Positions 1,132-22,458 of a DNA stretch of 33,406 nucleotides are shown here, in pieces. The translations under genes were made by a program, and so were the position numbers. The number at the start of each line of letters is the position of its first letter. Position 1 is the stretch's first letter. The stretch comes from Clostridia bacterium (GTDB taxonomy: Bacteria; Bacillota; Clostridia; Christensenellales; UBA1242), in assembly GCA_028702545.1 (NCBI GenBank), contig JAQVOQ010000002.1:1-33406 (forward strand), read 5' to 3'. The notes under the pieces are model-generated. The model did no database searches, was not told the origin of the DNA, and worked only from the letters and a program-made list of their open reading frames with translations.

Positions 1132-1776
1132 TTACCATTTAACCCTTAAAACTTTTTTAACAAAAATTTTTGCAAGGCTTAAGTCAAATTGAGTACCGGA
1201 ACAACGCTTTATCTCTTCCACTGCTAGTTTTTTAGAAAGAGCTTTTCTATATGGACGATTTGAAGTCATAGCATCATAGCTGTCTGCAAGAGCTATAATA
1301 CGAGCAGGTAAGCAAATTTGCTCACCACTTATTTGATTTGGATAACCTTGTCCATCCCATCTTTCGTGGTGTTCTAGCACAAATTGTGAAATTTTTTCTA
1401 AATCATTAGATAAATTTAGTATTTTGCTTCCCATTAAACTATGGGTTTTAATTTTTTCAAACTGAAGACTTGTTAATTTTTGTTTGCTATTTAGTATTTC
1501 ATCTGAAATACCTAATTTTCCAATATCGTGCATAAGTGCTGCAAGAGAAATTTGTCTTATAGTGTCTTTATCTAAGTTTACACTTTGAGCAAGTTTTTTT
1601 GCCAACTTACTTGTTCGTTTTGAATGTGAAAAATAGTTTACACTTTTATTTGCCAGCGCATGCATGATCATCTTTTTATCGTTTTCAATATTTTCAACAT
1701 AATCAGCATTATCAACGATAAATAGTAACATATCTTGTAGAATATTATTTTTTGTTGTAGCTATTTTTTCCATCAT
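1132..1776 (-). CDS. stand-alone HD-GYP domain phosphodiesterase
   Basis: 214 aa with the HD motif LMHDIGK and the HHERWDGQGYP signature. A GAGGA RBS is present. The gene starts only 24 nt after the sipW stop, so it is probably co-transcribed. Confidence 0.9.
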   Translation of the reverse strand: MMEKIATTKNNILQDMLLFIVDNADYVENIENDKKMIMHALANKSVNYFSHSKRTSKLAKKLAQSVNLDKDTIRQISLAALMHDIGKLGISDEILNSKQKLTSLQFEKIKTHSLMGSKILNLSNDLEKISQFVLEHHERWDGQGYPNQISGEQICLPARIIALADSYDAMTSNRPYRKALSKKLAVEEIKRCSGTQFDLSLAKIFVKKVLRVKW

Positions 1777-1800: not shown

Positions 1801-2361
1801 TTATTTTTTCTTTTTGCCAATCTTTAGGTAATCCGCTACTAAAAATATTATTACTATGTCAAAAATTATTACTGATTTGCCAAATGGAGATTCAGCAAAC
1901 ATTAATAAGCTTCCAAGTTTAGGTATCTTAAAAGCAAAAATTCCAATAATGTCATCTTGAGTTATTTCCCAGTCGTCCCAGTCCACATAACTAGTAACAT
2001 TTTCTCTTTTTGTATTAAATGTTTTGTTGCCAAATTCATCGGTAGTTACATTTGCTATGTAATGGACAACTATTTCGTTTTTTCCATTATCATTTAAATC
2101 ATGATAAAAACTTATAATAGTGTCTACGACTAAATCCTCAGGGTTATAATTATTATCAACAATAACTATATCTCCACGACTAATTGTTGGACTCATACTG
2201 TTTGACACTATAATAAAATGTTGTTTAGTATTGAAGAAGGGAACAAAGTTAAAAATCACAAACCCAACAGCATAAATAATAAATAGTATGCATAAAAAAC
2301 GAATCCATTTTTTTAATTCGGAAGTGTCTTTTTTACTAGTTAAGTTGTTATTTTTTGCCAT
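1801..2361 (-). CDS. sipW: SipW-type (S26B, ER/archaeal-like) signal peptidase I
   Basis: 186 aa. An N-terminal TM helix is followed by the Ser box SNSMSPTISRGDIVIV, a later His box (VVHYIANV) and a C-terminal TM. The gene sits directly downstream of a protein with a SipW-class signal peptide. Confidence 0.8.
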   Translation of the reverse strand: MAKNNNLTSKKDTSELKKWIRFLCILFIIYAVGFVIFNFVPFFNTKQHFIIVSNSMSPTISRGDIVIVDNNYNPEDLVVDTIISFYHDLNDNGKNEIVVHYIANVTTDEFGNKTFNTKRENVTSYVDWDDWEITQDDIIGIFAFKIPKLGSLLMFAESPFGKSVIIFDIVIIFLVADYLKIGKKKK

Positions 2362-2499
2362 GCTATTTACCCAAAGCCCTTGTTATTAAAAAAAGAAAAG
2401 TTTATAATTTATACATTCTTTGCTTTTTTAAGTAAAATTTATTTTGTTTTTAAACAATACTGCATTAATATATGCATTATAAATAATTTTAAAGTTTGA

Positions 2500-3039
2500 T
2501 TATGCTTCTGTTACTTCAAAACTAATTTCAAATGTAATAGAATTTCCTGCAAGCGCAAGATAAGCTGCATCATAATCTTCTGCGTCTAATAAACTATCAT
2601 CAATTGTAACGCTTAAGCTAACTATAACATCACTATTTTGAATAGTTCCTGGGTTAGTAACTACTACGCTGATTAAACCATAAGGGTTTGCAACTGAATC
2701 AACTTCAATATTGCTAACTGTTACTTCTAAATCTAATGCTGCGTCAAGTGGTTCTGCAATTCTTACAGTATATTCTAAAACTACTTCATGAGTATCACCA
2801 GTTTTTAATATAGCGTCTGCTGGAACTAAACTACCATCTGTTAAAGGATCAATTTCAACATCTAATACAACCAATTCTAAACCTTGACCAACAGTTACAA
2901 TGTCTTGCTCTAGACGGTTTACTGTTAATGAATCCCACCATGAAAATGCGATTGTAGAACCTCCTAAAAGTATTACTGCGAAAATAAGTACTAAAATTTT
3001 TCTCATCATTTGATTTTTTTCTTTTTTACCAGTTTCCAT
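2500..3039 (-). CDS. TasA/camelysin-like secreted protein with a SipW-dependent-type signal peptide
   Basis: 179 aa with a GGAGG RBS at 3048-3052. The signal peptide ends LLGGSTIAFSWWDS (compare TasA GGGTWAAFND). The C-terminal strand NSITFEISFEVTEA resembles TasA NSIKLQFSFEATQ. Confidence 0.7.
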   Translation of the reverse strand: METGKKEKNQMMRKILVLIFAVILLGGSTIAFSWWDSLTVNRLEQDIVTVGQGLELVVLDVEIDPLTDGSLVPADAILKTGDTHEVVLEYTVRIAEPLDAALDLEVTVSNIEVDSVANPYGLISVVVTNPGTIQNSDVIVSLSVTIDDSLLDAEDYDAAYLALAGNSITFEISFEVTEA

Positions 3040-3071
3040 TTTGTTTTCCTCCGTTATTTTTTTAATTGATT

Positions 3072-3110
3072 AAAAAACAAAAAGCCACATTTATACAATA
3101 TAAATATGGC
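3072..3110 (-). terminator. leader (attenuator) terminator upstream of the tasA-like gene
   Basis: The minus-strand RNA forms GCCAUAUUUAUA (3099-3110) paired with UAUAAAUGUGGC (3084-3095), loop UUG, followed by UUUUUGUUUUUU. One pair is G.U on the minus strand but C.A on the plus strand, so the hairpin is strand-specific. It lies between the promoter and the RBS. Confidence 0.75.
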
Positions 3111-3178
3111 ACCTGGCTATCTTGCTGTGCAAGACCATATAGTTTTCCGTCACTAGATCACTCTAGTTTTAGCTTTTT
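3100..3178 (-). promoter_or_regulatory. candidate riboswitch aptamer, GEMM-I (c-di-GMP-I)-like
   Basis: The minus-strand RNA reads GCUAAAAC-CUAGA-GUGA-UCUAG-UGACGGAAAAC-UAUAUGG-UCUUGC-ACA-GCAAGA-UAGCCAGGUGCCAUAU. It has a GNRA-capped hairpin and a second hairpin closed by AUAUGG/CCAUAU, whose 3' strand overlaps the terminator arm. The strings echo the Vc2 motifs GGCAAACC..GGGACGCAAAGCC..UAGCGGGGUUACC. No covariance-model search was run. Confidence 0.45.
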
Positions 3179-3218
3179 CATAATTTTTGATTACTTTTTA
3201 TTTTTCTTAATCTTTTTT

Positions 3219-3247
3219 ATTTTAACCTTTTTAAAGAGTATAGTCAA
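3219..3247 (-). promoter_or_regulatory. sigma-A type promoter of the leader/tasA-like operon
   Basis: On the minus strand, TTGACT (3242-3247) is followed by a 17-nt spacer and TAAAAT (3219-3224). Confidence 0.65.
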
Positions 3248-3493
3248 CAAAAATAAAGCTTTTATTTAATTTTTTTTATTTTTTTTTTAAAAAGTTGTTT
3301 TAATTGTTATAATATTGACAAAGTAGCCGATTATATTGAGTTTACCGCTCATTTTATTATATGTATATGCTTTAATTTTGTAAAAGTTTAGATAGTTTTT
3401 ATGTAAATTTTAATATTTAGCCTCTTGTTTTATCAAATTCGTTTGATAAGCTTTTGTTTTTAAATAAATGCTTAACAGCATTAAAGTATTTAT

Positions 3494-3568
3494 TGGTGCA
3501 CCCGTCAGGACTCGAACCCGAAATATTTGTTTCGAAGACAAATGTGATATCCGTTTCACTACAAGTGC
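3494..3568 (-). tRNA. tRNA-Arg (anticodon UCG), CCA encoded
   Basis: A manual cloverleaf works. Acceptor GCACUUG pairs with CGGGUGC (two G.U pairs); D arm is GUGA-AACGGAUA-UCAC; anticodon arm is UUUGU-CUUCGAA-ACAAA; T arm is UCGGG-UUCGAGU-CCUGA; discriminator A precedes CCA. Confidence 0.9.
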
Positions 3569-3581
3569 AAATAACATCAAT

Positions 3582-3610
3582 AGTTTAATGTTTGATAGTC
3601 TCTTTGTCAA
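3582..3610 (-). promoter_or_regulatory. promoter of the tRNA-Arg gene
   Basis: On the minus strand, TTGACA (3605-3610) is followed by a 17-nt spacer and TAAACT (3582-3587), about 13 nt upstream of tRNA position 1. Confidence 0.6.
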
Positions 3611-3728
3611 ATCAATTTTTTCTAGTTTTAAAAAAATAAGCTTTTACTGTTAAACAAATCAATAATAATTGTTTAGTTTTTATTATTATGCTATATTTAT
3701 AATATGAAAATGACAAAAGAGGGAAAAG

Positions 3729-4358
3729 ATGAACTTATTTGATATTTTAAATAAAGAATACGAATTGAGAGTAAATCCAGCTGAAAAATTTGACCTTGTA
3801 AATGTTTCACGCTATTTTAATGAAGATGAAGACAGATACAAGCATATTTTGGGCGTTGCAGCACATATGAAGGCGCTAGTTGAACAACTTGGACTGGACG
3901 ATGAAGAAAAAGAAGACTTAATGAAAATAGCATATCTTCACGATATAGGATATTCTAAAAGAGTTATGTCAAGAGGATTTTATGCACTAGATAGTGCAAT
4001 TTTTGCACTTGAGAAAGCATTTGGCGAAACAGTTGCGCTTGCTATTATGTTTCACACCGCAGCTTACGGCGAGTCAAGGCACTTGAGTGTTAGCATTAAA
4101 TATATTTATGACAAAGCCAAATTGCTATTAAATGCAAATGAAAAAGCAAAACGATATGTTGAGCTTATAACCTATTGCGACCTTCATACCGAGAGCGATG
4201 GAAGACCGACGACAACGCCAAGACGCATATTTAAAATACTAGCAAGATATGAAAAAGGCAGTCCAACTTATAAGAACATAAAAGCACACAAAAGATATTT
4301 TAAAAATCTAACTAAAAAAATTAGAACAAGCGTTTTAAAAGAAAAAATTGTTAGTTAA
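3729..4358 (+). CDS. HD domain-containing phosphohydrolase
   Basis: 209 aa with H..HD spacing (HILGVAAHM ... AYLHDIGYS ... MFHTAAY). RBS is AGAGGGAAAAG. It lacks the GYP motif. Confidence 0.8.
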   Translation: MNLFDILNKEYELRVNPAEKFDLVNVSRYFNEDEDRYKHILGVAAHMKALVEQLGLDDEEKEDLMKIAYLHDIGYSKRVMSRGFYALDSAIFALEKAFGETVALAIMFHTAAYGESRHLSVSIKYIYDKAKLLLNANEKAKRYVELITYCDLHTESDGRPTTTPRRIFKILARYEKGSPTYKNIKAHKRYFKNLTKKIRTSVLKEKIVS

Positions 4359-6113: not shown

Positions 6114-6911
6114 TTAAAATAGTTTTTTAATATTTGGAGTGGGTATTTGGCGCTTAATAGGTATCCCTAGTTTTTTGGCTATCTCTATGCTTTGCTTTTT
6201 AAAGCACATATACCAAGCAACACAATAAACATTAGGGTCATCTGTTTCTAATTGTTGACGCTCCAAAAGCTCTTTTACTGTTTGCGGTTGCCTCAATATA
6301 ACATCATCTCCTAACCTCCAATTAGCGGGAGTCGAAACATCTTCTAAATCAGTTATTTGTAAGGCCTGTATAACCCTTCTTACTTCTTCTAAATTTCTGC
6401 CAGTTTTGTGCCCATAATATAATATGGCCCGTATTCTTGCATCGGGATCAATTACAAACAAGGTACGAATAGTTCTTGTATTGGTTTCACCGCGATGAAT
6501 CATCCCATACTTATTGCTTATTTCCATCGTAGGGTCTGCTATTATTGGAAAGTTTATGTTAATATCTTTTAAACCATTCCATTCTATTTGATAAATGCTC
6601 TGTATCCACTCTAAATGTGAATCTATTGAATCAACACTCAAACCAAGAAGCTCGGTGTTCATATCTTTAAATTGTTGTTGCATTGTTTGAAATATCATAA
6701 ACTCACTCGTACAAACGGGCTCAAAGTCACCAGGATGACTAAAAAACACAACCCACTTTCCAGCATAATCAAAAGGAAAGTTAACGGGTCCTTTTGTTGT
6801 TTCTGCTTTAAAAGGTGCAGCACGCTCTCCAATTAGAGGCATTTTATATATTATTGGAGAGCGACCAGTTTCGCCAGTTTGCATGGCGTCTGTTTGATTT
6901 TTAATATCCAT
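6114..6911 (-). CDS. Prx6-like peroxiredoxin paralog with a variant active site (PGDFEPVC)
   Basis: 265 aa with an AAGGAG RBS. The AhpC/TSA fold motifs FSHPGDFEPVCTSEF, TIRTLFVIDP and C-terminal YCVAWYMC (C-x5-C) are present. The Thr of PxxxTxxC is Glu (codon 6720-6722). There are N- and C-terminal extensions. Confidence 0.85.
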   Translation of the reverse strand: MDIKNQTDAMQTGETGRSPIIYKMPLIGERAAPFKAETTKGPVNFPFDYAGKWVVFFSHPGDFEPVCTSEFMIFQTMQQQFKDMNTELLGLSVDSIDSHLEWIQSIYQIEWNGLKDININFPIIADPTMEISNKYGMIHRGETNTRTIRTLFVIDPDARIRAILYYGHKTGRNLEEVRRVIQALQITDLEDVSTPANWRLGDDVILRQPQTVKELLERQQLETDDPNVYCVAWYMCFKKQSIEIAKKLGIPIKRQIPTPNIKKLF

Positions 6912-6928
6912 AAAAGCTCCTTGATTTG

Positions 6929-7747
6929 CTATTTATTATTTGTAGGATTGCGCCATATAACTTTTGCACTATTAGGTGAAGAATTTTTGTTTATATTAGT
7001 GCTGTTTTGATTTTGTTTAGCACCACTAGTATCTTTTTTTAGGCATAAATACCAATCTGGGCAATAAACATTATTATCTATAATATTTCTTTTTCTGCGG
7101 TCAATATCTCCATCTATTGTCATAGGAGGAGGTAGTATTATATCATCACCAGGCATCCAGTTTGCAGGAATATGAACATTTTCGGTGTCGTGCTTTATAA
7201 CAGCTGTTACAAGACGCCTAATTTCTTCTCCGGACTTGCCTACTTCTCTTGGGTAAATTTGAATAGCTCTAATTTTTCCGTTAGGGTCAATCAAAAAACC
7301 ACCTCTTACTGTTTCCGTCTTAGTTTCACCTCTTCTTAAAAGCCCGTATCTGCGAGCAATTTCCATACTGCTATCTGATATTAGAGGAAAAGTAATTATG
7401 GTATTTTTAAAATCTAAATACTCCATATTATAAATACTCTCAAGCCAAGCAACATGAGAAAACATAGAATCTATGCTTAATGCAACTATTTCTACATTTA
7501 ACTTTTTATAAAATTCTTCACTTTCCATAAGTTCAAATAGTTCTGTTGTGGCAACGGGTCCAAAGTCGGCAGGATATGAATAAAACAAAACCCATTTACC
7601 CTTGTAATCAGCTGGGAAATTAATTGGACCTTTTGTAGACTCGGCTTTAAAAGGTGGAGCTGGTTCTCCTATTAAGGGCAAAGTGTAGATAGGTGGTATT
7701 TGATAAGTATCCTGAGCGTTTATGTTTTTTTTATTTTTTTCATCCAT
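6929..7747 (-). CDS. peroxiredoxin-like protein lacking the peroxidatic Cys (PADFGPVATTE)
   Basis: ORF-track ORF trimmed to the ATG at 7747, which has an AAGGAG RBS. Motifs are YSYPADFGPVATTE (Ala codon 7550-7552 in place of the peroxidatic Cys, Gly in place of Thr), TVRGGFLIDP and YCPDWYLC. It ends 18 nt upstream of paralog 6114..6911. Confidence 0.85.
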   Translation of the reverse strand: MDEKNKKNINAQDTYQIPPIYTLPLIGEPAPPFKAESTKGPINFPADYKGKWVLFYSYPADFGPVATTELFELMESEEFYKKLNVEIVALSIDSMFSHVAWLESIYNMEYLDFKNTIITFPLISDSSMEIARRYGLLRRGETKTETVRGGFLIDPNGKIRAIQIYPREVGKSGEEIRRLVTAVIKHDTENVHIPANWMPGDDIILPPPMTIDGDIDRRKRNIIDNNVYCPDWYLCLKKDTSGAKQNQNSTNINKNSSPNSAKVIWRNPTNNK

Positions 7748-7909
7748 AAAAAAACTCCTTTTTACTAAGTTATATATGAAAAAAGTATAAAAACAGTTAA
7801 CATAAAAATTAATATTGAGTAAAAAAGAGCCTAAAACAGCCTGTTTTGGTGCGAATCTTTTAAAAATGCACATTTTTTGATTAAATTAGTAGATTTATTT
7901 TCTAAAAAT

Positions 7910-8849: not shown

Positions 8850-8886
8850 TTGTGAATAAATAACTAAAGGCAGGGACTTGAGTTTT

Positions 8887-9906
8887 ATGCAAATAAAAAA
8901 AATAAAAGCATCAGGCGAGTTTAGGCACCGTTACATACAAATTAATGATGCAATATATACATTTAATCAAGCATTAATATCTTTTGCTAAAAAAGCAGAT
9001 GAAATTAGAAAAGTTCATTATTCAATGGATATCAAAAATGAAATACCGGTTACCGCTAAGTTCATTTATCCATCTGTTGAAGTTATGCAAAAAGAGATAG
9101 ATGCCAACATTAAAAATATAATTGAAAACTTGCATTTAAAAGCAAGTGATAAACAAATAGACGAGTTTTTTTCAGTATATAAATTACAAGATTACTTTTC
9201 AAATAAACTAACATACAGTATGTTAGCACAAGAAGAAAGAGGATATCAGTTCGAAGACAATAACTATTATATGAGTGCTATAAAATATAATAGGGATAAG
9301 CTTAGGTCGTTTAATTTAAAACCAGCGCCAGCACCGCAAGAAAGAAAGTTGTATAGAATTCAAAAACATAAAATTTATGAAGAGATGTCAAATGAAAATG
9401 AGTTTATAAAAAGCAATGTTCCTTTTAATCAAATAAATTATTTAAAAGGCTTATATAATGTATTTGTAAGAGAAAATGGAGTATGTTCGGAATTTTCTAA
9501 CGCATTTAGTTACATTTTAAACAAGATAGATATAGTAAGTTACAAAGTTTTGGTAAGTAAATTTATAAATAATACAGAGCTGTTCCACGCTTATAATTTA
9601 ATTGAGTTTGTAACAAAAGGACAAAAAAAATATTATGCTTGTGATTTAACCAGAAGCGTTTGTAACAAAGAAAAATACAATAATTTAAAAGTTAAAAATA
9701 GAATTCTAGGTTTTGGAATGGGAAGTGACCAATTAGAAGATACCAACAACTCTAAAATTCTATCTATTCAAAAATATGGCGAAAATTTACAAAAAGAATT
9801 TTTTCCACAAGTAGAAGAAGACATTTTAATAAACGATTTATCCGAAAGGTTGATAGAAAAACTTTTAAAAACTAATGATTTAGTTGAAGAGAAGGAAATA
9901 AATTAA
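8887..9906 (+). CDS. transglutaminase-like (Cys-His-Asp papain-fold) protein, paralog 1
   Basis: The ATG at 8887 is preferred: the TTG at 8878 abuts the RBS, and MQIKKIK parallels MEIKKVV of paralog 2. Core is NGVCSEFSNAF (Cys codon 9484-9486) ... FHAYNLIEF ... YYACDLT. No signal peptide. Confidence 0.75.
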   Translation: MQIKKIKASGEFRHRYIQINDAIYTFNQALISFAKKADEIRKVHYSMDIKNEIPVTAKFIYPSVEVMQKEIDANIKNIIENLHLKASDKQIDEFFSVYKLQDYFSNKLTYSMLAQEERGYQFEDNNYYMSAIKYNRDKLRSFNLKPAPAPQERKLYRIQKHKIYEEMSNENEFIKSNVPFNQINYLKGLYNVFVRENGVCSEFSNAFSYILNKIDIVSYKVLVSKFINNTELFHAYNLIEFVTKGQKKYYACDLTRSVCNKEKYNNLKVKNRILGFGMGSDQLEDTNNSKILSIQKYGENLQKEFFPQVEEDILINDLSERLIEKLLKTNDLVEEKEIN

Positions 9907-11003
9907 TGGAAATTAAAAAAGTTGTAACTGATAAGTTTTATAAAAATCAATATATTAATTTTGGTGGAAATATTTTTGAAATTAATTATTTTAAAGCGAT
10001 GAACCCATCATTAATTGGTGCGTTAGAAGAGGTTGAGGCAATATTAAAAAATTCTAAAGACAATTTAAAGGCGGCAAAATTTATAGAAAAAATAACCTTT
10101 AAGCCTTTTCCATCTAATAAAAAAATGATAGAAACTATTAATAAAAAATGCGAAAGTATTTGTGATTTTTTACAGTTAAATGAAATAAAAGGTGAGGATG
10201 CTAAAATAGTAAAATCACTCGTATTATTTAATTATCTTTCAAAAAATACAAGATATAATATGACCGTGCAAGAGTCGATAGATATTGATAATTTTGAAAA
10301 AATAATTAATAAAATGGAAAATAAACTAATTAAACTAAAAGAAGAACATCAAAATTTAGAAATTCTTAAAAATCTAATGGAAGATAAAAATGATAAAAAA
10401 ATTCTTTCAGCACAAATTGAGCATGTAAAAAAAGATTTTATATCACTATCAAACCAAAGCAATAAGTGTCTTATAGAGTTTTTGAATGAATTTTATATAA
10501 AAGCCATCTATAGCACTTTAATATATAATCAAGGTGTTTGCTCAGGATTTAGTTATACATATCAACTTTTATTAAAAACTGCAGGCATCAATGCATTTTC
10601 GTTAGAAGCATATAAAGAAGGTGAAGCTACGGGGCATGCATTTAACTTACTAGAATTTAAACAGGGAAATAAAACAACTTATCATATAGCGGATGTAACC
10701 TCGGCAATTGCGCAAGGTTCAAAAGATAGTAAAACAATTTTAAAGTCTTTTAGTATACCAAAAGAAAAGTATTTTTATATGATTAATCAAAATGTAGCGA
10801 CAATAAAAAAATTATCAAGTCTTAAAAAAGATTCGCGAACTACATTTTTTGAAAATATCTATACCTCAACTTTATGTGGCTTAATATATAACAAGATAAA
10901 TAATAAAGAAGTATTAGAAAAACAAAAATTAAAAGCACTAATTTTTATTGACAAGCATAGCAAAATTAAAGAGCAAATATTAAACGATGAAATAATAAAA
11001 TAA
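9906..11003 (+). CDS. transglutaminase-like (Cys-His-Asp) protein, paralog 2
   Basis: Its start overlaps the upstream stop (TAATG at 9904-9908). Core is QGVCSGFSYTY (Cys codon 10539-10541) ... GHAFNLLEF ... YHIADVT. The N-terminal half is helical. Confidence 0.8.
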   Translation: MEIKKVVTDKFYKNQYINFGGNIFEINYFKAMNPSLIGALEEVEAILKNSKDNLKAAKFIEKITFKPFPSNKKMIETINKKCESICDFLQLNEIKGEDAKIVKSLVLFNYLSKNTRYNMTVQESIDIDNFEKIINKMENKLIKLKEEHQNLEILKNLMEDKNDKKILSAQIEHVKKDFISLSNQSNKCLIEFLNEFYIKAIYSTLIYNQGVCSGFSYTYQLLLKTAGINAFSLEAYKEGEATGHAFNLLEFKQGNKTTYHIADVTSAIAQGSKDSKTILKSFSIPKEKYFYMINQNVATIKKLSSLKKDSRTTFFENIYTSTLCGLIYNKINNKEVLEKQKLKALIFIDKHSKIKEQILNDEIIK

Positions 11004-11035
11004 ATATTGAAATGTAAACTTGAGGGGAAAAAAAT

Positions 11036-12154
11036 ATGAAGCAAGAAGAAAAAGTAATACCAGTAGTAGCTGACGAATTTTACAAAGATTCTTATGTCGG
11101 TATAGGATATGATATTTTTGAGTCACAATATGCACTAGATAGGTATCCCGAGCATCAAGAAGCAATTTTAAAAGCTATTGAAGTAGTTAAACCTGCAAAA
11201 AATGTTATAAAATTGACATATAGGGCTTTTCCAAGCAATAATAAAATGATAGAAATTTTATTGAATAAGCGTGAAACAATTTATAAAAACTTGAATTTAG
11301 ATAAGATTGTTGGCAAAGGTTCGGATATAATAAAAGCATGGGTTTTATATGATTATATATCTTTAGGTTTGTTTTATAATATGGCAACTATGGAAGAAGT
11401 TGTAACAAAAATAAAAGGCGTTGAAAAAATATCTGAGACTTACGAAGAGTCATTTAAAAAACAAAATTTATTTGCTAAACTTTATAAATTAGCAAAAACA
11501 GAAGAAGAAAAACTTAAAATAGCTACTATGTGGGAAAAATTAGGAAGAAAAATATCAAATATTGAAACAGATTATTACAAAAAAGAAACTCAAGCGGATA
11601 ACCGTACTTATTTAAGACAACTTTATAGCGCACTTATAAGAGGCAAAGGAGTTTGTGCCGAGTTTAGTTATGTTTATCAATTTTTACTAGAAGGAATTGG
11701 CATAAAAAGTATATATACTATAATTTATGCGGAGGGTTCTAAATTTGCGCATGCAATTAATTTAGTTGAATTTAAAAAAGATAACAAAAAAGCATATTAT
11801 ATTGTAGATCTTACTGCGGGCAGTTCTTACGCTAAATCGTGCGAGGGCTCATATTTTAATTATCATGGTTTTGCAGTACCAAAAGATAAATATTTTGCTT
11901 TAGAAGATAATACGCAAAAGATTTGTGCAGCGGGTTATTTTAATGGATTAGATATTGATTTAAATAAAAAAATAGTAAAATTTTCATCAAGAGAATCAAC
12001 TATGGAAATACTAAGAAGAAAGATTGTAAATACTTTTGATTTCCAAAAGGAATATGAAAAAGCTGCAAGATTTTCACTATCAAGTTATTCTGAATTTGGT
12101 ACGGGCAAAACTAAAGAGCCTCAAAAAGAATATAAACAACAAGAAATTTTATAA
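11036..12154 (+). CDS. transglutaminase-like (Cys-His-Asp) protein, paralog 3
   Basis: GAGGGGA RBS. Core is KGVCAEFSYVY (Cys codon 11654-11656) ... AHAINLVEF ... YYIVDLT. The N-terminal motif FYKDSYVGIGYDIFE parallels FYKNQYINFGGNIFE of paralog 2. Confidence 0.8.
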   Translation: MKQEEKVIPVVADEFYKDSYVGIGYDIFESQYALDRYPEHQEAILKAIEVVKPAKNVIKLTYRAFPSNNKMIEILLNKRETIYKNLNLDKIVGKGSDIIKAWVLYDYISLGLFYNMATMEEVVTKIKGVEKISETYEESFKKQNLFAKLYKLAKTEEEKLKIATMWEKLGRKISNIETDYYKKETQADNRTYLRQLYSALIRGKGVCAEFSYVYQFLLEGIGIKSIYTIIYAEGSKFAHAINLVEFKKDNKKAYYIVDLTAGSSYAKSCEGSYFNYHGFAVPKDKYFALEDNTQKICAAGYFNGLDIDLNKKIVKFSSRESTMEILRRKIVNTFDFQKEYEKAARFSLSSYSEFGTGKTKEPQKEYKQQEIL

Positions 12155-12576: not shown

Positions 12577-13266
12577 ATGAACAATAATATAATAAGCGTA
12601 ATAAAAGACTATGATAACTACGCGACAATAACGAAAGAATATGATAATTACTTGCAATCAATTCAACAAACTACGCCAAAATATTTAAATGCAATAATAA
12701 TTATGGCGGTAGAAAAAGTTATGAGAATTCACAGTTTAGAAACATATAATCATGCCGAAAATATGATTAAAATTGTAACGCCTTTAGCTAAAGCACTTAA
12801 TTTAAGCAAAGAGGATTCAAAAAAGATAAAACTAATCGCAAAATTGCATGATATTGGTAAACTTTCAATAAGTCAAAGTATTTTAAACAAAAAATCACCA
12901 CTTGATGATAAAGAGTGGAATATTATTAAAACTCATCCTGTTGAATCATACAAAATAGTAAGGTGCATTGATTGCTCCATAGATGTGGCAAAAGATATTT
13001 TGCATCACCACGAGCGCTATGATGGCACAGGATACCCCAATAAATTAAAAGGTGAGGAAATACCATACTTGTCAAGAGTGATAGCTGTTGTTGATGCTTA
13101 TGAGGCTATGTTAAATGGAAGGATATATAAACAGCCAAGGCCAAATGCTGAGGTTATAGCTGAAATTAAGCATTGTTCGGGCACGCAATTTGACCCCAAT
13201 ATCGTAAAAGTTTTTGTAAAAACATTTGACAAACAAAAAAATAAAGAGGACTTTAAAAACCTTTAA
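12577..13266 (+). CDS. stand-alone HD-GYP domain phosphodiesterase (second copy)
   Basis: 229 aa with KLHDIGK and HHHERYDGTGYP. AAGGAG RBS at 12566-12571. Confidence 0.9.
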   Translation: MNNNIISVIKDYDNYATITKEYDNYLQSIQQTTPKYLNAIIIMAVEKVMRIHSLETYNHAENMIKIVTPLAKALNLSKEDSKKIKLIAKLHDIGKLSISQSILNKKSPLDDKEWNIIKTHPVESYKIVRCIDCSIDVAKDILHHHERYDGTGYPNKLKGEEIPYLSRVIAVVDAYEAMLNGRIYKQPRPNAEVIAEIKHCSGTQFDPNIVKVFVKTFDKQKNKEDFKNL

Positions 13267-13317: not shown

Positions 13318-13980
13318 CTAAACTTCTTTATAACAAAGCCACCAGTCTTTGCATTCATATTTTCCTTCTTGCATACCGCTTAGCCTTGCATCAATTTGTT
13401 GATTTGATTGAGGAGGCGGATAAACCATAACATTTTTGCCAAGCCACAGGTTATTAGGAAAGTTCTCAGGTGCTGCCATTTTATATTTATCTGACATTTG
13501 AAGTGCGTTTAAAGACCTTAAGACCTCGTCAACACTCCTGCCAATTTCTGGCGGATAGGTCATGGTTAGTCTAATAACTCCTCTTGGATCAATTATAAAA
13601 AGTTTTCTTACAGTTTTAGCACCCTTTTTAGCATGAACCATGCCTAACTCTTTTGCAACATTTCCTAAGGGGTCTTCAATAATAGGAAAGGGCACAGCCG
13701 TATTAGCATTTTCTTCAATCCACTCCACCCATTTAAAATGTGGGCCTAATCCATCAACGCTTAAGCCTAAAAGGTTGGCACCTAGTGCTTTAAATTCATC
13801 CACTCTATTTGACATAGCAACAAATTCTGTAGTGCAAATAGGCGTGAAGTCGCCAGGATGACTAAATAAAATTAGCCATTTACCAGCATAATCCTGAGGT
13901 AAGTTTTTAATGCCATCGGTCGTGCTAACTTGCATTTGTGGCAGTTCATCGCCTAGCATTAACTGCTTTTCTTCGTTCAT
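13318..13980 (-). CDS. peroxiredoxin, Prx6-like with a canonical active site and C-terminal C-x5-C
   Basis: 220 aa with FSHPGDFTPICTTEF (intact PxxxTxxC), TVRKLFIIDP and the C-terminal YECKDWWLCYKEV. AGGAGA RBS. Confidence 0.9.
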   Translation of the reverse strand: MNEEKQLMLGDELPQMQVSTTDGIKNLPQDYAGKWLILFSHPGDFTPICTTEFVAMSNRVDEFKALGANLLGLSVDGLGPHFKWVEWIEENANTAVPFPIIEDPLGNVAKELGMVHAKKGAKTVRKLFIIDPRGVIRLTMTYPPEIGRSVDEVLRSLNALQMSDKYKMAAPENFPNNLWLGKNVMVYPPPQSNQQIDARLSGMQEGKYECKDWWLCYKEV

Positions 13981-14097: not shown

Positions 14098-14943
14098 TTA
14101 ATTATTGCCGCCAGCATTTTGACCATAAGGTGGGCCAGCAATATTATTTATAATCCTATTGATTATTTCTGTTACTGCAACGCTTGAGGCCTCTGCATTT
14201 AGCAGTTTATATAATTCCATCATGTTCATACTAGCTAAATATTCTTCATGTCCTAAAAGCGTTGGAAACCTGTTTATTATTTTTTTGATGTAACAATATT
14301 TTGCGGGAGTAACATTTATATTTTGCTCAAAATGTTGTTTTAAGGCATTAAATTCTTCTATTGCCTCTTCATCATACTCTTCTACAATAATATTTCCATT
14401 AAGTCCATTGCTATTTAAATATGTGTTTACCATTGCTTGCAAATTATTTTTATAAGCATTTTCAACATTTTTATTTTTATTTTTTACAGAAAGCATTATT
14501 GCATTTTCAAAAGAATTTTGTAAGTAGCCATCATTTTGTGCTTTTGTAAGCACTGCATTTAAGGCAAGGTTATAGTTTAATCCAGGCAAAGTTAAGCCGG
14601 CTAAGAAAGTTGCTCCGTCGTCATTTATACCAGTTGCTCCAACTACAATCGCATCTGAGTTTAATGTTAATTCAATGCTTGGATTAATATCAAGTGTAAG
14701 CGTAGTATAAGCAGATTCAAGATTTGGCATAAGTGCGTTAAACATAACAAAAGCTATTAATACGAATGCCATAACAGCGGGTACAAGCCTAAAAACTAGT
14801 GAGCGTTTTGACGCCTTAGCTTTTGCTAGTTGATTACTCATTACAACAATGTCGGACTTTTGTCTAACTTTATCTATTACATCGGGTATGGGTAGTGAGT
14901 TTAATTCAATATTTAATTGTTTTATTAATTGTTTTTTATTCAT
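14098..14943 (-). CDS. membrane anti-sigma factor with an RsgI-type juxtamembrane (DINPS) domain
   Basis: 281 aa. The start overlaps the sigma stop by 8 nt. It has a short cytoplasmic N-terminus and one TM (LVPAVMAFVLIAFVMF). The ectodomain begins TLTLDINPSIELTLNSD...INDDGATFL (DINPS at 14677-14691), like B. subtilis RsgI ..IDINPSVEM..LNDEG. Confidence 0.75.
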   Translation of the reverse strand: MNKKQLIKQLNIELNSLPIPDVIDKVRQKSDIVVMSNQLAKAKASKRSLVFRLVPAVMAFVLIAFVMFNALMPNLESAYTTLTLDINPSIELTLNSDAIVVGATGINDDGATFLAGLTLPGLNYNLALNAVLTKAQNDGYLQNSFENAIMLSVKNKNKNVENAYKNNLQAMVNTYLNSNGLNGNIIVEEYDEEAIEEFNALKQHFEQNINVTPAKYCYIKKIINRFPTLLGHEEYLASMNMMELYKLLNAEASSVAVTEIINRIINNIAGPPYGQNAGGNN

Positions 14944-15463
14944 TACCCTTAACCTCCTTTTGTAATTTTTTAATGGCTTTACTGTAAATCCATAATACAG
15001 TTCCTAAGGGTTTGTCTAATTGAGTAGCAATTTCTCTATGTTTATATCCTAAAGTATATAGGGTCACCACCTGTCTTTCTTCAAAGTCTAATATTGTAAG
15101 CAATTTTTTTAAGAGCATATTATTTATCATACTGTCTTCATTACTTGAACTAAATAGATACTCATTTTCAACTTCATCTGTAATAATTTCTCTCTTTCTT
15201 CTATTATATGTATTTATTGCTATATTGCGAGAAAGGCTCATTATCCAAGCTTGTGCATTTGTATTTGCTCTATATTGGCCAATAGTTTTCCTTATTTTAA
15301 TATATGCGTCTTGCATTAATTCTTCCGCTATACCATAGTCTTTTATTATTGAAAATATAACAAAGAAAACCTGCTTTTTTGTTTGATTATAAACTGTTTC
15401 AAAAGCTTGTTCGTCACCTGTTTGCATTTTTTGCATATTTTGTTCTAATAGTTGCTTATCCAA
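14936..15463 (-). CDS. ECF-type sigma-70 family RNA polymerase sigma factor
   Basis: 175 aa. Region 2 (AFETVYNQTKKQVFFVIFSIIKDYGIAEELMQDAYIKI) and the region 4 HTH (LGYKHREIATQLDKPLGTVLWIYSKAIKKL) are recognisable. TTG start with an AAGGA RBS. Confidence 0.9.
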   Translation of the reverse strand: MDKQLLEQNMQKMQTGDEQAFETVYNQTKKQVFFVIFSIIKDYGIAEELMQDAYIKIRKTIGQYRANTNAQAWIMSLSRNIAINTYNRRKREIITDEVENEYLFSSSNEDSMINNMLLKKLLTILDFEERQVVTLYTLGYKHREIATQLDKPLGTVLWIYSKAIKKLQKEVKGNE

Positions 15464-15496
15464 TTGTTTTATCCTTTGTTACTTTACTTTAATGAT

Positions 15497-15525
15497 ATTC
15501 TATCAAAACATTAAATTCTTAACAA
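15497..15525 (-). promoter_or_regulatory. candidate sigma-A promoter of the sigma/anti-sigma operon
   Basis: On the minus strand, TTGTTA (15520-15525) is followed by a 17-nt spacer and TGaTAGAAT (TAGAAT at 15497-15502). Confidence 0.5.
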
Positions 15526-15596
15526 ACAAATAACATACAAAACTTTTGTTACACTAATAATAACAATCAAAATGAAGTGTTTATTGGTAAAACTAT

Positions 15597-15625
15597 TAAA
15601 AAGCCACATAAAATGCAGCTTTTTA
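15597..15625 (-). terminator. intrinsic terminator after the 414-aa coiled-coil gene
   Basis: The minus-strand RNA forms AGCUGCAU-UUU-AUGUGGCU followed by UUUU. The G.U pairs make it specific to the minus strand. Confidence 0.6.
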
Positions 15626-15655
15626 AAGGATAAAACAAAATGTTAATTTGTATTG

Positions 15656-16900
15656 TTATGGTCTATTAGTTTGCCAAGTAGCTTGGATAGAATCTAAAAT
15701 GCTATCTATTTGCTCTTCGGTTAAATTGTTTTGAAAGTTTTTCCACTGAGCCTTTACTTGTTCTGATCTTTCAACTTTATTTGCTTGCCAATCTTCATAT
15801 TTATCTAATGCTGCACCTTTTTTTGTTTGTGCTTGAAGTTGCAAAGTATTTAAATATAGTTGTCTTGCACCAAGTGTTGATTGTAACTCGCTTAGTGTAA
15901 TATTAAGTGTAGCAATTTGATTTGTTAGTAAAACAACTTCTGCTTGCAAGTCACTAGCCGTTAATTCAGCCGTAGCAATTTGAGTAGTTATGCTTACTAT
16001 TTCAGTTTCTAAATCAGTAACAGCTAATTGATTTGCAGCAAGTTGAGTGTCATAAATTGCTAAATCTTCAACCGTATATTCTGTCGTATCAATAGCTTCA
16101 AAATTTACAAGTTCAGCTTGTGCTAATATTAAACTTGCATTAGCCGCATCTAATGTAGCATTAAGTGTAATAACTTCGTCTTGTGCTAGTATTAAATTTG
16201 CGTTAGCCGAATTTAATGTAAGATTAAGCGCATCAATTTGAGTTTGAGTCGCAATAATTTGTGAATCTAAATATTCAATATAACTTTCAACTTCTCTAGC
16301 ACCTCTTAACATATCCATCATATCTTTTACTGATAAGTTAAGGGCTTGTTCTGTTGTTACATCAGGATAAACGGCTTGAATACTCCTAATTAATTTTAGG
16401 TTTCCAGCGCCTACTCCTAAAGTTTCTGCCTCTGCGATAATGTCAGCCATATCAAGGTCTGTCATTATCACTCCATAAATACCATTGTTTTTGAAAAAGT
16501 TTTCTAAATGAGTTTTAACCCTATCTCTAAGCCTAGCTTGTAGTCTTATATTTTGAGATTCTAGTACGGTTGTAATTGTAATCGCATTAGGATCATCCGC
16601 TAAAGCTTCTGGGTCTAAGTAGCCATATTCTATGGCAAGTTCTACAATTCTCTCAGTAGCTTCTTCAATGCTTAAACCGATTAAATTATCAACCTCTCCT
16701 AGTAAAATTGTTTCGCCATCATCATTTGCTGCTGTTACGCTAACAACCTCGTTCGCGCCGTCAGTTACAAATTGTACACTTGGGTTAATGTCTACGCTAA
16801 CGTATGCCATAACTGAACCTATATTAGAGTTAAATACATAACCATAAAGTAAGCCTGTAATTAAAACCATAGGCAATATAATTGCTAATATTTTTTTCAT
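15656..16900 (-). CDS. membrane-anchored protein: RsgI-type DINPS domain fused to a long coiled coil, with no anti-sigma domain
   Basis: The ATG at 16900 is 8 nt after GGAGG (16909-16913). MKKILAIILPMVLITGLLYGYVF forms the TM, followed by VSVDINPSVQF...ANDDGETIL (DINPS at 16778-16792) and about 200 aa of A/L/Q/T-rich heptad repeats. Confidence 0.8.
   Translation of the reverse strand: MKKILAIILPMVLITGLLYGYVFNSNIGSVMAYVSVDINPSVQFVTDGANEVVSVTAANDDGETILLGEVDNLIGLSIEEATERIVELAIEYGYLDPEALADDPNAITITTVLESQNIRLQARLRDRVKTHLENFFKNNGIYGVIMTDLDMADIIAEAETLGVGAGNLKLIRSIQAVYPDVTTEQALNLSVKDMMDMLRGAREVESYIEYLDSQIIATQTQIDALNLTLNSANANLILAQDEVITLNATLDAANASLILAQAELVNFEAIDTTEYTVEDLAIYDTQLAANQLAVTDLETEIVSITTQIATAELTASDLQAEVVLLTNQIATLNITLSELQSTLGARQLYLNTLQLQAQTKKGAALDKYEDWQANKVERSEQVKAQWKNFQNNLTEEQIDSILDSIQATWQTNRP
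16105..16230 (-). repeat. imperfect 63-bp (21-codon) tandem duplication inside the coiled-coil gene
   Basis: Protein units LNLTLNSANANLILAQDEVIT and LNATLDAANASLILAQAELVN. A 48-nt core differs at 7 positions by eye. Confidence 0.6.
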
Positions 16901-16984
16901 AATAATTTCCTCCATATTTTTATTTTTTTAGTCTACGAACAATAAAACCATCTCAACATAGTTTTTATTGGCAATATTAAAAAA

Positions 16985-21928: not shown

Positions 21929-22224
21929 AATAACCTCCTTTAAAAAATAAACATCTTTTACATCATATAAGTAAAAAATGTTAGCAAAGTCATAATGCAA
22001 AAACATATCCTTTGTTTTATTATTTTATATACTTACATTATATAGTATATTATCTAATTTTAAAAATAATTTTATATACTTTTGTCAATTTAAAAAAGAG
22101 TTTGTATATAACTTTTATGTTTAATTTAAAAAACCTATTATTTGTTTATCTATTTGACAAACAGCCTCGCTATGTGCTATTTTTATTAAATAGTATTAAT
22201 ATAAAAACTGTGAATATGTTTTAG

Positions 22225-22440: not shown

Positions 22441-22458
22441 TTTAAAAAGGAGATAAAA

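What the first reader, a model, noticed from the sequence alone, without database searches (positions are those of the whole stretch)
3072..3212. Riboswitch-like attenuation leader (GEMM-I-like) in front of the tasA-like/sipW/HD-GYP operon
A good minus-strand promoter (TTGACT-17-TAAAAT) is followed by about 170 nt of non-coding leader before the GGAGG RBS. The leader RNA contains a 5-bp hairpin capped by a GNRA loop (CUAGA-GUGA-UCUAG, 3153-3166). A second hairpin, UCUUGC/GCAAGA (3120-3134), is enclosed by AUAUGG (3135-3140) paired with CCAUAU (3104-3109). The 3' strand of that enclosing helix is also the left arm of a 12-bp terminator (3099-3110 with 3084-3095) followed by a U tract, so the two folds are mutually exclusive, as in a riboswitch expression platform. 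The order GCUAAAAC[GNRA hairpin]GUGACGGAAAAC ... UAGCCAGGUGCC parallels the V. cholerae Vc2 c-di-GMP-I core GGCAAACC[GAAA hairpin]GGGACGCAAAGCC ... UAGCGGGGUUACC. The operon also ends with a cyclic-dinucleotide phosphodiesterase. Deviations such as ACGG for ACGC could mean a variant ligand.
Basis: partly seen in the sequence, partly recalled or inferred. Interest (0 to 1): 0.75.

Follow-up and report, generated by a model that had tools for sequence, protein, structure and literature searches.

The report
c-di-GMP riboswitch before fibre operon
The leader is a standard class-I c-di-GMP riboswitch, most likely switching on an operon for a secreted TasA-like protein, its SipW-type signal peptidase and a c-di-GMP-degrading enzyme; the RNA class is well known, so only its gene context is new.

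Summary
Rfam's c-di-GMP-I model (RF01051) matches window 3105-3183(-) at 49.2 bits, above the gathering score of 35 (E 7e-7 for the whole window).

- **Ligand site:** the three ligand-contacting positions are canonical (G3173, A3146, C3109). The "ACGG instead of ACGC" deviation is a flipped base pair, not a sign of a different ligand.
- **Subtype:** the aptamer has a GYRA tetraloop (GUGA) and no tetraloop receptor, the known receptor-less subtype.
- **Structure:** the GEMM-I fold is backed by covariation in 16 orthologous leaders and in 139 distinct relatives (about 90% of cells paired, against 19-44% when partners are slid).
- **Switch direction:** a 12-bp terminator (3110-3084) plus U tract shares its 5' arm with C92 and the 3' strand of P1. 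This overlap recurs in the homologues, which implies an ON switch.
AUAUGG/CCAUAU exists only in this strain and is not the conserved fold.
- **Operon:** it encodes an unannotated secreted protein whose predicted fold best matches TasA, a SipW-type signal peptidase and an HD-GYP phosphodiesterase. The last suggests negative feedback.
- **Distribution:** the same riboswitch-plus-protein-family module, often with tandem aptamers, recurs in MAGs labelled Izemoplasmatales, Acholeplasmatales, Mollicutes or Bacilli.

This is a new member of a known riboswitch class. Its gene context is modestly new.

The parts
3219..3247 (-). Sigma-70-type promoter: -35 TTGACT (3247-3242), 17-nt spacer, -10 TAAAAT (3224-3219). 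The inferred transcription start is near 3212.
   Evidence: 10 of 12 consensus positions. A TTGACA-type promoter lies 16-35 nt upstream of the first aptamer in 7 independent homologous loci.
3105..3183 (-). c-di-GMP-I (GEMM-I) aptamer of the receptor-less GYRA-tetraloop subtype.
   Evidence: RF01051 49.2 bits against gathering score 35, E 7e-7. Covariation.
3179..3182 (-). P1 5' strand UAUG, pairing with CAUA at 3108-3105.
   Evidence: Pair map. P1 is annotated at the same place in the RF03167 consensus. P1 pairs covary among 139 relatives (helix 1).
3173..3173 (-). G equivalent to Vc2 G20, a ligand contact.
   Evidence: Alignment to RF01051 model position 11. The G20/A47/C92 roles are from PMC11218506.
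3152..3167 (-). P1b hairpin ACUAGA-GUGA-UCUAGU with a GYRA tetraloop. It is flanked by the 2-bp helix C3172-G3147 and U3171-G3148.
   Evidence: All 6 pairs show compensatory changes among relatives (helix 3).
3146..3146 (-). A equivalent to Vc2 A47, the base that intercalates between the two guanines of the ligand. It is the first base of the AAA linker.
   Evidence: Alignment. It is A here, whereas the GGC variant model has G at this position.
3111..3144 (-). P2 hairpin with an AG bulge (A3118, G3117) and no 11-nt tetraloop receptor. It carries two non-standard pairs in this strain: A3143/G3112 and U3137/C3115.
3109..3109 (-). C equivalent to Vc2 C92, a ligand contact. It also lies in the terminator's 5' arm.
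   Evidence: Alignment. It is C here, whereas the UAU variant model has U.
3084..3110 (-). Intrinsic terminator hairpin: 12 bp, GCCAUAUUUAUA-UUG-UAUAAAUGUGGC. Its 5' arm (3110-3099) overlaps C92 and the P1 3' strand (3110-3105).
   Evidence: -13.1 kcal/mol. The same overlap, with covarying distal stems, is seen in homologues.
3072..3083 (-). U tract UUUUUGUUUUUU of the terminator.
3037..3052 (-). Ribosome-binding site GGAGG (3052-3048) and ATG (3039-3037) of the first gene.
2500..3039 (-). Gene 1: a 179-aa secreted protein of an unannotated family. It has an N-terminal hydrophobic helix followed by a conserved GGSxxAFSWWD motif and a beta-sandwich domain with a TasA-like predicted fold.
   Evidence: No Pfam, NCBIfam or PDB sequence hit. 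AlphaFold2 pLDDT 83; the top three PDB fold hits are all TasA. The family lies downstream of at least 49 of 93 related aptamers.
1801..2361 (-). SipW-type (archaeal/ER-type) signal peptidase I.
   Evidence: TIGR02228 54.0 bits against cut-off 51.85.
1132..1776 (-). Stand-alone HD-GYP phosphodiesterase with HDIGK and HHERWDGQGYP motifs.
   Evidence: Pfam HD_5 E 9.8e-37. Motifs.

Best explanation
The leader is a transcriptional ON riboswitch of the c-di-GMP-I (GEMM-I) class.

Transcription starts from the promoter at 3247-3219. The nascent RNA then forms the two-hairpin aptamer at 3183-3105.

Without ligand, the 4-bp P1 helix is too weak to hold its 3' strand. The segment G3110-A3099 instead pairs with 3095-3084 to make a 12-bp terminator, and RNA polymerase stops in the U tract before the first gene.

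When c-di-GMP is bound, it is contacted by G3173, A3146 and C3109. P1 and the pocket are then locked, the terminator's 5' arm is unavailable, and transcription reads through into the three genes: a secreted TasA-like protein, a SipW-type signal peptidase that would process it, and an HD-GYP phosphodiesterase.

High c-di-GMP would therefore turn on a putative extracellular fibre or matrix module. At the same time it would make an enzyme that lowers c-di-GMP, giving negative feedback.

What is shown: class membership, the covarying fold, the canonical pocket letters, the overlap between terminator and aptamer, and the identities of SipW and HD-GYP. What is inferred: ligand binding, the ON direction, the fibre function of gene 1, and the feedback loop.
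For: - RF01051 scores 49.2 bits against a gathering score of 35, E 7e-7, with full-length model coverage 1-87.
- All orthologous genes recovered with upstream DNA carry RF01051 hits of 47-64 bits.
- The fold is 91.9% paired in 16 leaders, against 19-41% for slid controls, with 10 pairs changed on both sides. In 139 distinct relatives it is 90.1% paired against 27-44%, with 19 of 25 pairs compensatory.
- Positions 20, 47 and 92 read G, A and C. They differ from the GGC model (G47) and the UAU model (U20, U92).
- The GYRA loop without a receptor matches the described subtype (PMC1950547; PMC11218506).
- The terminator is detected.
- In 12 of 16 related leaders the terminator's 5' arm begins at the G before C92. 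In the three L003 leaders it uses the P2 3' strand. Distal stem sequences differ but stay paired.
- Energies are -13.1 kcal/mol for the terminator against -7 for the ligand-free aptamer.
- PMC1950547 states that such overlap predicts higher expression at higher ligand concentration.
- SipW: TIGR02228 at 54 bits. HD-GYP: HD_5 at 1e-36.
- A natural SipW/HD-GYP fusion protein occurs in L001.
Against:
- This strain's aptamer has a U-C mismatch (3137/3115) at a pair that is G-C in 134 of 135 relatives, and an A-G mismatch at 3143/3112.
- Its nascent RNA prefers, by minimum free energy, the non-aptamer helix AUAUGGU/GCCAUAU. Ligand-competent folding may therefore be impaired or re-tuned.
- P1 is only 4 bp.
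- No diguanylate cyclase was found in the 33-kb window. c-di-GMP synthesis in this organism is therefore assumed, not shown.
- The local promoter scan is no better than shuffles.
Confidence: 0.85

Rival explanations
1. The aptamer in this particular strain is decaying or re-tuned. The G-to-U change at 3137 breaks an otherwise invariant G-C pair and creates the AUAUGGU/GCCAUAU helix. That helix sequesters the terminator's 5' arm without ligand, which would make the operon leaky or constitutive instead of c-di-GMP-gated.
For: - The window is the only one of 135 relatives with a non-G-C pair at that position. Sister strains break the neighbouring invariant pair instead.
- The alternative helix is the minimum-free-energy fold of the nascent RNA for the window allele only.
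- RF01051 scores 49.2 here against 52.3 in the sister strain.
- Three of the nine positions that vary between these strains fall in the 79-nt aptamer.
Against: - All ligand-contact letters, the P1 complementarity and the terminator are intact.
- The score is still 14 bits above the gathering threshold.
- With the full leader, the terminator state is still favoured (-20.4 against -15.3 kcal/mol).
- Other non-coding DNA varies at a similar rate (3 changes in the 138-nt gap 2362-2499).
Confidence: 0.1
2. The aptamer senses a different cyclic dinucleotide, such as 3'3'-cGAMP, as the reader suggested from the ACGG deviation.
For: In the permissive search the clan's lowest E-value went to variant models: RF03168 for the window (46.1 bits) and RF03167 for the homologues.
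Against: - Those scores are below the variant families' gathering scores (65.9 and 59).
- The defining letters are not present: the window has G20, A47 and C92, not U20/U92 or G47.
- cGAMP-selective GEMM-I variants differ at the position that contacts the G or A base (PMC9481103). From my own knowledge that change is G20 to A; the window has G there.
- ACGG is explained by a flipped pair (C-G in 122, G-C in 16 relatives).
Confidence: 0.03
3. The element is an OFF switch or a translational switch: ligand binding promotes termination or hides the ribosome-binding site.
For: c-di-GMP-I riboswitches with OFF or dual behaviour exist, for example Bc1 in Bacillus thuringiensis (PMC11218506).
Against: - The terminator's 5' arm directly overlaps P1 and C92, so aptamer closure and terminator formation are mutually exclusive.
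- No anti-terminator segment lies between them.
- GGAGG lies about 20 nt beyond the U tract and is not paired with aptamer sequence in the predicted folds.
Confidence: 0.02

Closest known systems
c-di-GMP-I riboswitch (GEMM-I, Rfam RF01051), prototype Vibrio cholerae Vc2
   Same: - Two-hairpin aptamer joined by AAA.
- GNRA-capped first hairpin.
- AG bulge in P2.
- Canonical G20, A47 and C92 letters.
- 5'-UTR location.
- Scores above the family's gathering threshold.
   Different: - No 11-nt tetraloop receptor and a GUGA loop instead of GAAA, which is the receptor-less GYRA subtype (PMC1950547).
- The G21-C46 pair is flipped to C-G.
- P2 is shorter.
- This strain has two non-standard pairs in P2.
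Bc2 and the triple-tandem c-di-GMP-I riboswitches of Bacillus thuringiensis (ON switches before adhesin genes; cited in PMC9481103 and PMC12452182)
   Same: - Firmicute c-di-GMP-I aptamers with terminator-based platforms before surface or adhesion genes.
- Homologous loci here also carry double and triple tandem copies (L003, L009; L166).
   Different: - The window has a single aptamer.
- The regulated genes are an unannotated TasA-like family plus SipW and HD-GYP, not a collagen-adhesion protein.
- The ON behaviour of Bc2 is stated from my own knowledge, not from a paper read here.
c-di-GMP-I-GGC (RF03167) and c-di-GMP-I-UAU (RF03168) variant aptamers
   Same: A similar compact architecture without a receptor. 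These models therefore give comparable bit scores (46-58).
   Different: The defining pocket substitutions (G47, or U20 with U92) are absent, and the scores fall below their gathering thresholds.
Bacillus subtilis tapA-sipW-tasA biofilm-fibre operon
   Same: - A small secreted beta-sandwich protein encoded next to a SipW-type signal peptidase.
- The predicted fold's best PDB matches are TasA: 5of2, 5of1 and 8aur.
- Paralogue arrays of major and minor subunits occur in related loci.
   Different: - No sequence-level similarity to TasA or camelysin (Pfam, NCBIfam and PDB profile searches all negative).
- TM-score is only about 0.40.
- From my own knowledge, B. subtilis regulates the operon through the protein repressors SinR and AbrB; here regulation is by a c-di-GMP riboswitch.
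- An HD-GYP gene is part of this operon.

Membership tests
c-di-GMP-I riboswitch (RF01051) | Covariance-model score at or above the curated gathering score. | tested here: met
   49.2 bits against 35, E 7e-7, model positions 1-87 of 87.
c-di-GMP-I riboswitch (RF01051) | Two hairpins (P1a/P1b and P2) joined by AAA, enclosed by P1, with base pairs maintained by covariation. | tested here: met
   In 16 leaders 91.9% of cells are paired, against 19-41% slid. In 139 relatives 90.1% are paired, with 19 of 25 pairs compensatory. The second alignment was fitted to the model, so it leans towards the structure.
c-di-GMP-I riboswitch (RF01051) | Ligand-contacting nucleotides G20, A47 and C92 (Vc2 numbering; PMC11218506). 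| tested here: met
   G3173, A3146 and C3109 by alignment to the model.
c-di-GMP-I riboswitch (RF01051) | GNRA tetraloop on the first hairpin, either GAAA with a receptor or GYRA without one (PMC1950547). | tested here: met
   GUGA at 3161-3158. The receptor positions are deleted in the alignment.
c-di-GMP-I riboswitch (RF01051) | Conserved C (of the GAC junction) and G (of the AG bulge). From my own knowledge these form the inter-helix C44-G83 pair in Vc2. | tested here: met
   C3149 and G3117 are present and invariant in the 16-sequence alignment. The three-dimensional contact itself cannot be tested here.
c-di-GMP-I riboswitch (RF01051) | Specific binding of c-di-GMP and ligand-dependent gene control. 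| not testable with these tools
   Needs in-line probing or ITC, and transcription or reporter assays.
c-di-GMP-I-UAU (RF03168) and c-di-GMP-I-GGC (RF03167) variants | Pocket letters U20 with U92, or G47, together with a score at or above the gathering score. | tested here: not met
   46.1 bits against 65.9 for RF03168. The letters are G, A and C.
c-AMP-GMP (GEMM-Ib) riboswitch | A changed nucleotide at the pocket position that contacts the G or A base of the ligand (PMC9481103). From my own knowledge this is A in place of G20. | tested here: not met
   The position is G3173.
c-di-GMP-II riboswitch (RF01786) | A match to the family's covariance model. | tested here: not met
   No hit at the gathering score over the whole window, nor at E up to 10 in 2900-3700.
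TasA / camelysin family (Pfam Peptidase_M73) | Sequence match to the family profile. | tested here: not met
   No Pfam or NCBIfam hit for 11 members even at E up to 10. A PDB profile search finds no TasA.
TasA / camelysin family (Pfam Peptidase_M73) | TasA-like beta-sandwich fold. | tested here: inconclusive
   AlphaFold2 model at pLDDT 83. The top three PDB hits are TasA (5of2 E 1e-3, probability 1.00), but TM-score is only 0.40. An earlier model at pLDDT 65 also ranked the TasA fibre 8aur first.
SipW-type signal peptidase I (TIGR02228) | Score at or above the curated cut-off. | tested here: met
   54.0 bits against 51.85.
HD-GYP c-di-GMP phosphodiesterase | HD_5 domain with HD and GYP motifs. 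| tested here: met
   HD_5 E 9.8e-37. HDIGK and HHERWDGQGYP motifs. Enzyme activity was not tested.

The most novel reading that the evidence does not exclude
The riboswitch may be the control element of a previously unrecognised extracellular fibre system that resembles TasA and depends on SipW. Its subunits form an unannotated protein family. On this reading the module would be a main output of c-di-GMP signalling in uncultured low-GC Bacilli, in genomes labelled Izemoplasmatales, Acholeplasmatales or Mollicutes. It would be wired with single, double or triple riboswitches and with an HD-GYP feedback enzyme that is sometimes fused to SipW. In the window's species both known alleles break one of two otherwise invariant aptamer G-C pairs, which could be strain-level re-tuning of the c-di-GMP threshold.
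Probability: 0.35. Interest if true: 0.5.

Novelty: new member of a known kind. Interest (0 to 1): 0.3.

Why it matters
The RNA itself adds little, because c-di-GMP-I riboswitches are well characterised and this one is found by the standard Rfam model.

The value is in the context. The riboswitch points to an unannotated family of secreted proteins, genetically tied to SipW, as a c-di-GMP-induced function, probably a surface fibre or matrix. The organisms are poorly studied and mostly uncultured low-GC Bacilli, and I found no paper in the held library linking them to c-di-GMP signalling.

It also supplies a natural allele series (GGG, UGG, GUG) at an otherwise invariant aptamer helix, which could be used to study how riboswitch thresholds are tuned.

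Tried and rejected
- **Variant-ligand reading:** rejected. The pocket letters are canonical and ACGG is a flipped pair.
rejected as the conserved fold. Homologues have UAUAGGG, which cannot form it, and covariation supports the Rfam P2 instead.
- **Close relatives of gene 1 in GTDB genomes by peptide patterns:** none found. The word-indexed protein search gave only 9 proteins, then 16 with a profile, all unnamed or 'hypothetical' apart from one stray JGI label. The family turned out to be wider once loci were collected through the aptamer's DNA core.
- **Sequence-level link of gene 1 to TasA or any known family:** none found in Pfam, NCBIfam or PDB profiles.
- **Second aptamer in the window:** none found, whether in tandem or in the 138-nt gap between gene 1 and sipW, using Rfam or a purpose-built model.
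- **Diguanylate cyclase in the window:** none found, by motif scan plus Pfam on 26 of the 35 ORFs of at least 100 aa.
- **Taxonomy from PheT:** the best match is only 48% identical and MAG labels are inconsistent, so the organism is not placed beyond uncultured low-GC Bacillota.
- **Literature:** searches linking c-di-GMP riboswitches to SipW or TasA, or c-di-GMP to Izemoplasma or Acholeplasma, returned nothing relevant. The supplement of PMC5737381 that defines the GGC and UAU variants is not held, so I read their definitions off the Rfam consensus lines.

Full report
**Observation**

- Promoter TTGACT-17-TAAAAT lies at 3247-3219 (10 of 12 consensus positions).
- A GNRA-capped hairpin, CUAGA-GUGA-UCUAG, lies at 3166-3153.
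- A second hairpin, UCUUGC-ACA-GCAAGA, lies at 3134-3120.
- AUAUGG (3140-3135) is complementary to CCAUAU (3109-3104).
- A 12-bp terminator pairs 3110-3099 with 3095-3084 and is followed by UUUUUGUUUUUU.
- GGAGG lies at 3052-3048 and the ATG at 3039.

The 176-nt leader folds better than all 200 shuffles (z = -4.4). Promoter-like hexamers are no more frequent here than in shuffled AT-rich sequence (23 against 20.4), so the local scan alone does not establish the promoter.

**Identity of the RNA**

A scan of the whole window against Rfam 15 gives three hits above gathering score. One is c-di-GMP-I (RF01051) at 3105-3183(-): 49.2 bits against a threshold of 35, E 7e-7, covering the full model. 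No c-di-GMP-II match appears.

In the permissive mode the clan's lowest E-value goes to the variant model c-di-GMP-I-UAU, at 46.1 bits. That is far below its own gathering score of 65.9.

The consensus lines of the variant models show what defines them. UAU has U at the positions equivalent to Vc2 G20 and C92. GGC has G at the position equivalent to A47. The window has G3173, A3146 and C3109, which is the canonical G20/A47/C92 triad (roles cited from PMC11218506). These variant models score well only because they share the compact architecture without a tetraloop receptor.

The loop is GUGA and the 11-nt receptor is absent. [quoted passage not shown] A later paper calls this subtype 'type II' (PMC11218506).

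That first pair is C-G in 122 and G-C in 16 of 138 related aptamers. It is therefore a compensated flip and not a change in the ligand pocket.

**Comparative evidence**

The first gene's product (179 aa) has few word-sharing relatives in the 5.8-billion-protein index: 9 in total, none named. I fetched their contigs. Every homologous gene with enough upstream DNA has a GEMM-I aptamer in front of it, scoring 47-64 bits on RF01051. Several arrangements recur:
- three aptamers in tandem (L003);
- two in tandem plus one after the gene (L009);
- one before each of three paralogues (L001).

I aligned 16 distinct leaders and imposed the GEMM-I pairing.
- 91.9% of cells form standard pairs, against 19-41% when partners are slid.
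- 10 pairs change on both sides.
- No shuffle reaches the observed covariation score.

An exact search for the aptamer's core (GRCGGAAARCTAYAGGGTCT) in one genome per GTDB species found 88 stretches. Most are in MAGs labelled Izemoplasmatales, Acholeplasmatales, Mollicutes, Mycoplasmatota or Bacilli. A model built from the 16 leaders found 146 aptamers in those loci and only one in the window. On that alignment 90.1% of cells pair, against 27-44% slid, and 19 of 25 pairs show compensatory changes. That alignment is fitted to the model, so it leans towards the structure.

**Expression platform and direction of control**

Pair mapping shows that P1 is UAUG (3182-3179) with CAUA (3108-3105). The terminator's 5' arm is 3110-3099. 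It therefore contains the G before C92, C92 itself and the whole 3' strand of P1. A closed, ligand-bound aptamer and the terminator cannot coexist.

The same design recurs in the relatives.
- In 12 of 16 leaders the terminator starts at that same G, and the distal stems differ in sequence but stay paired.
- In the three L003 copies the terminator instead uses the P2 3' strand (CCAGUUGC with GCAACUGG).
- L009a has no terminator of its own and runs straight into the next aptamer.
- L009c is cut by the contig end.

The terminator is worth -13.1 kcal/mol. The ligand-free aptamer fold is worth about -7, and P1 adds nothing. The default state is therefore termination, and ligand binding is expected to permit read-through. 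This is the logic proposed for GEMM elements with overlapping terminators (PMC1950547). The ON direction is inferred, not shown.

A TTGACA-type promoter sits 16-35 nt upstream of the first aptamer in seven independent loci. It is absent where an aptamer follows a preceding paralogue.

AUAUGG/CCAUAU can pair, and it is even the minimum-free-energy fold of the window's nascent RNA. It exists, however, only because this strain has U at 3137. Distant homologues read UAUAGGG and same-species contigs read UAUAGUG. It is not the conserved structure.

The finding has a second side. The two G-C pairs next to the AG bulge are G-C in 134 of 135 and 135 of 136 relatives. The only exceptions are the window, with U-C at 3137/3115, and its sister strains, with U-C at the neighbouring pair. 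So each of the two known alleles of this species breaks a different one of two otherwise invariant pairs.

Eight of the nine positions that vary between the window and these 99.3-99.8% identical contigs are non-coding. Three of them lie in the aptamer. I cannot tell from sequence whether this is threshold tuning, decay or neutral drift. The score drop is small, 49.2 against 52.3 bits.

**What is regulated**

- **SipW.** The second gene is a SipW-type signal peptidase (TIGR02228, 54.0 bits against cut-off 51.85).
- **HD-GYP.** The third gene is a stand-alone HD-GYP protein (HD_5 E 1e-36, with HDIGK and HHERWDGQGYP motifs).
- **Gene 1, sequence.** It has no Pfam, NCBIfam or PDB sequence match, even using profiles of 11 or 39 members.
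- **Gene 1, features.** It has an N-terminal hydrophobic helix followed by a conserved GGSxxAFSWWD motif.
- **Gene 1, fold.** A 19-sequence AlphaFold2 model (pLDDT 83, pTM 0.68) has TasA as its top three PDB fold matches: 5of2 with E 1e-3 and probability 1.00, then 5of1 chains A and B, all at TM-score about 0.40. An earlier, poorer model also ranked the TasA fibre 8aur first. 'TasA-like' is therefore a reasonable description at the level of fold and context, but not a family membership.

Using a profile of the family on the loci collected through the aptamer core:
- 49 of 93 aptamers are followed directly by a family member;
- 58 of 89 loci contain 1-5 copies;
- all 36 loci that contain a SipW homologue also contain the family;
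- HD-GYP is nearby in 8 loci.

In L001 a single 624-aa protein joins a SipW-type peptidase domain (TIGR02228, 59 bits) to an HD-GYP domain. This supports a functional link between the two.

The most economical reading is that c-di-GMP induces a secreted fibre or matrix module, with the HD-GYP enzyme giving negative feedback. The fibre function and the feedback are both inferred.

**Context and organism**

The rest of the window is ordinary chromosome:
- pheS and pheT behind a T-box;
- folD and ndk;
- three peroxiredoxin paralogues;
- a sigma-70-family gene beside two RsgI-domain genes;
- a second HD-GYP.

GC content is about 30%. The closest PheT in the GTDB species set is only 48% identical, and the MAG labels are inconsistent. 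The organism is an uncultured low-GC member of the Bacillota.

No GGDEF protein is seen in the window, so c-di-GMP synthesis in this organism is assumed. I found no paper in the held library linking c-di-GMP riboswitches to SipW or TasA, or c-di-GMP to Izemoplasma or Acholeplasma. This is a limit of that library, not proof of novelty.

**Verdict**

This is a canonical receptor-less c-di-GMP-I riboswitch, most likely a transcriptional ON switch.

Two details are corrected: which helix competes with the terminator, and the absence of any sign of a variant ligand.

It is a new member of a known kind. Interest is modest, and comes from the unannotated TasA-like/SipW module it controls and from the strain-specific breaks in an invariant aptamer helix.

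Noticed in passing
window 3494-3568 (-), break at 3537: Same-species contigs L010, L013, L014 and L015 match the window only up to 3537, the middle of tRNA-Arg(TCG). Beyond that point L010 carries unrelated DNA that includes an AbiEii gene. No intact tRNA is detected there at E 0.1 or better. This looks like an element integrated into the tRNA gene in those strains, with the window representing the unoccupied site.
   Followed up: partly
window 3137/3136, 3171, 3287-3288, 2372, 2396, 2489: Eight of the nine positions that differ between the window and sister-strain contigs are non-coding, and three of those lie in the aptamer. The window and the sister allele each break a different one of two G-C pairs that are otherwise invariant in 139 related aptamers.
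   Followed up: partly
L001 5541-7415 (+): A 624-aa protein fuses an unknown N-terminal region, a SipW-type signal peptidase domain (TIGR02228, 59 bits) and an HD-GYP domain. In the window these are two adjacent genes.
   Followed up: partly
L003 3655-3949; L009 128-294 and 890-965; L166 6443-6748; L001 3173, 3861, 4541: Homologous loci carry double and triple tandem c-di-GMP-I aptamers, or one aptamer before each paralogue. L009's first aptamer has no terminator of its own and abuts the second, so the two may share one expression platform.
   Followed up: partly
L099 2674-3939, L107 2496-3773, L126 1498-2769, L131 1374-2645: In many related loci sipW is followed by an open frame of about 420 aa that matches the family profile, then by another small member. 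This suggests an ordered arrangement of major subunit, peptidase, large subunit and minor subunit.
   Followed up: no
window 22201-22424 (+): A T-box leader (RF00230, 94.2 bits against gathering score 93) lies upstream of pheS (22369-23505) and pheT (23516-25894).
   Followed up: no
window 12577-13266 (+) and 3729-4358 (+): A second stand-alone HD-GYP protein is present (HD_5 E 2e-32, HHERYDGTGYP motif). A further HD-domain protein is encoded divergently just beyond the tRNA.
   Followed up: no
window 8878-12154 (+): Three consecutive ORFs of 342, 365 and 372 aa have no Pfam match at E 1e-5 or better. They lie in a stretch with strong positive GC and AT skew.
   Followed up: no
window 6114-7873 (-) and 13318-13980 (-): Three peroxiredoxin (AhpC/TSA) paralogues occur within 8 kb, two of them adjacent.
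   Followed up: no
window 14098-16915 (-): A sigma-70-family gene (14936-15463) overlaps an RsgI-domain gene (14098-14943) by 8 bases. A second RsgI-domain gene lies at 15656-16915.
   Followed up: no
window 2461-2476 (-): A small hairpin, UGCAU-AUAUUA-AUGCA, sits 24 nt after the stop codon of gene 1 in the 138-nt gap before sipW. It has no clear U tract. It could partly attenuate transcription after the putative major subunit gene.
   Followed up: no
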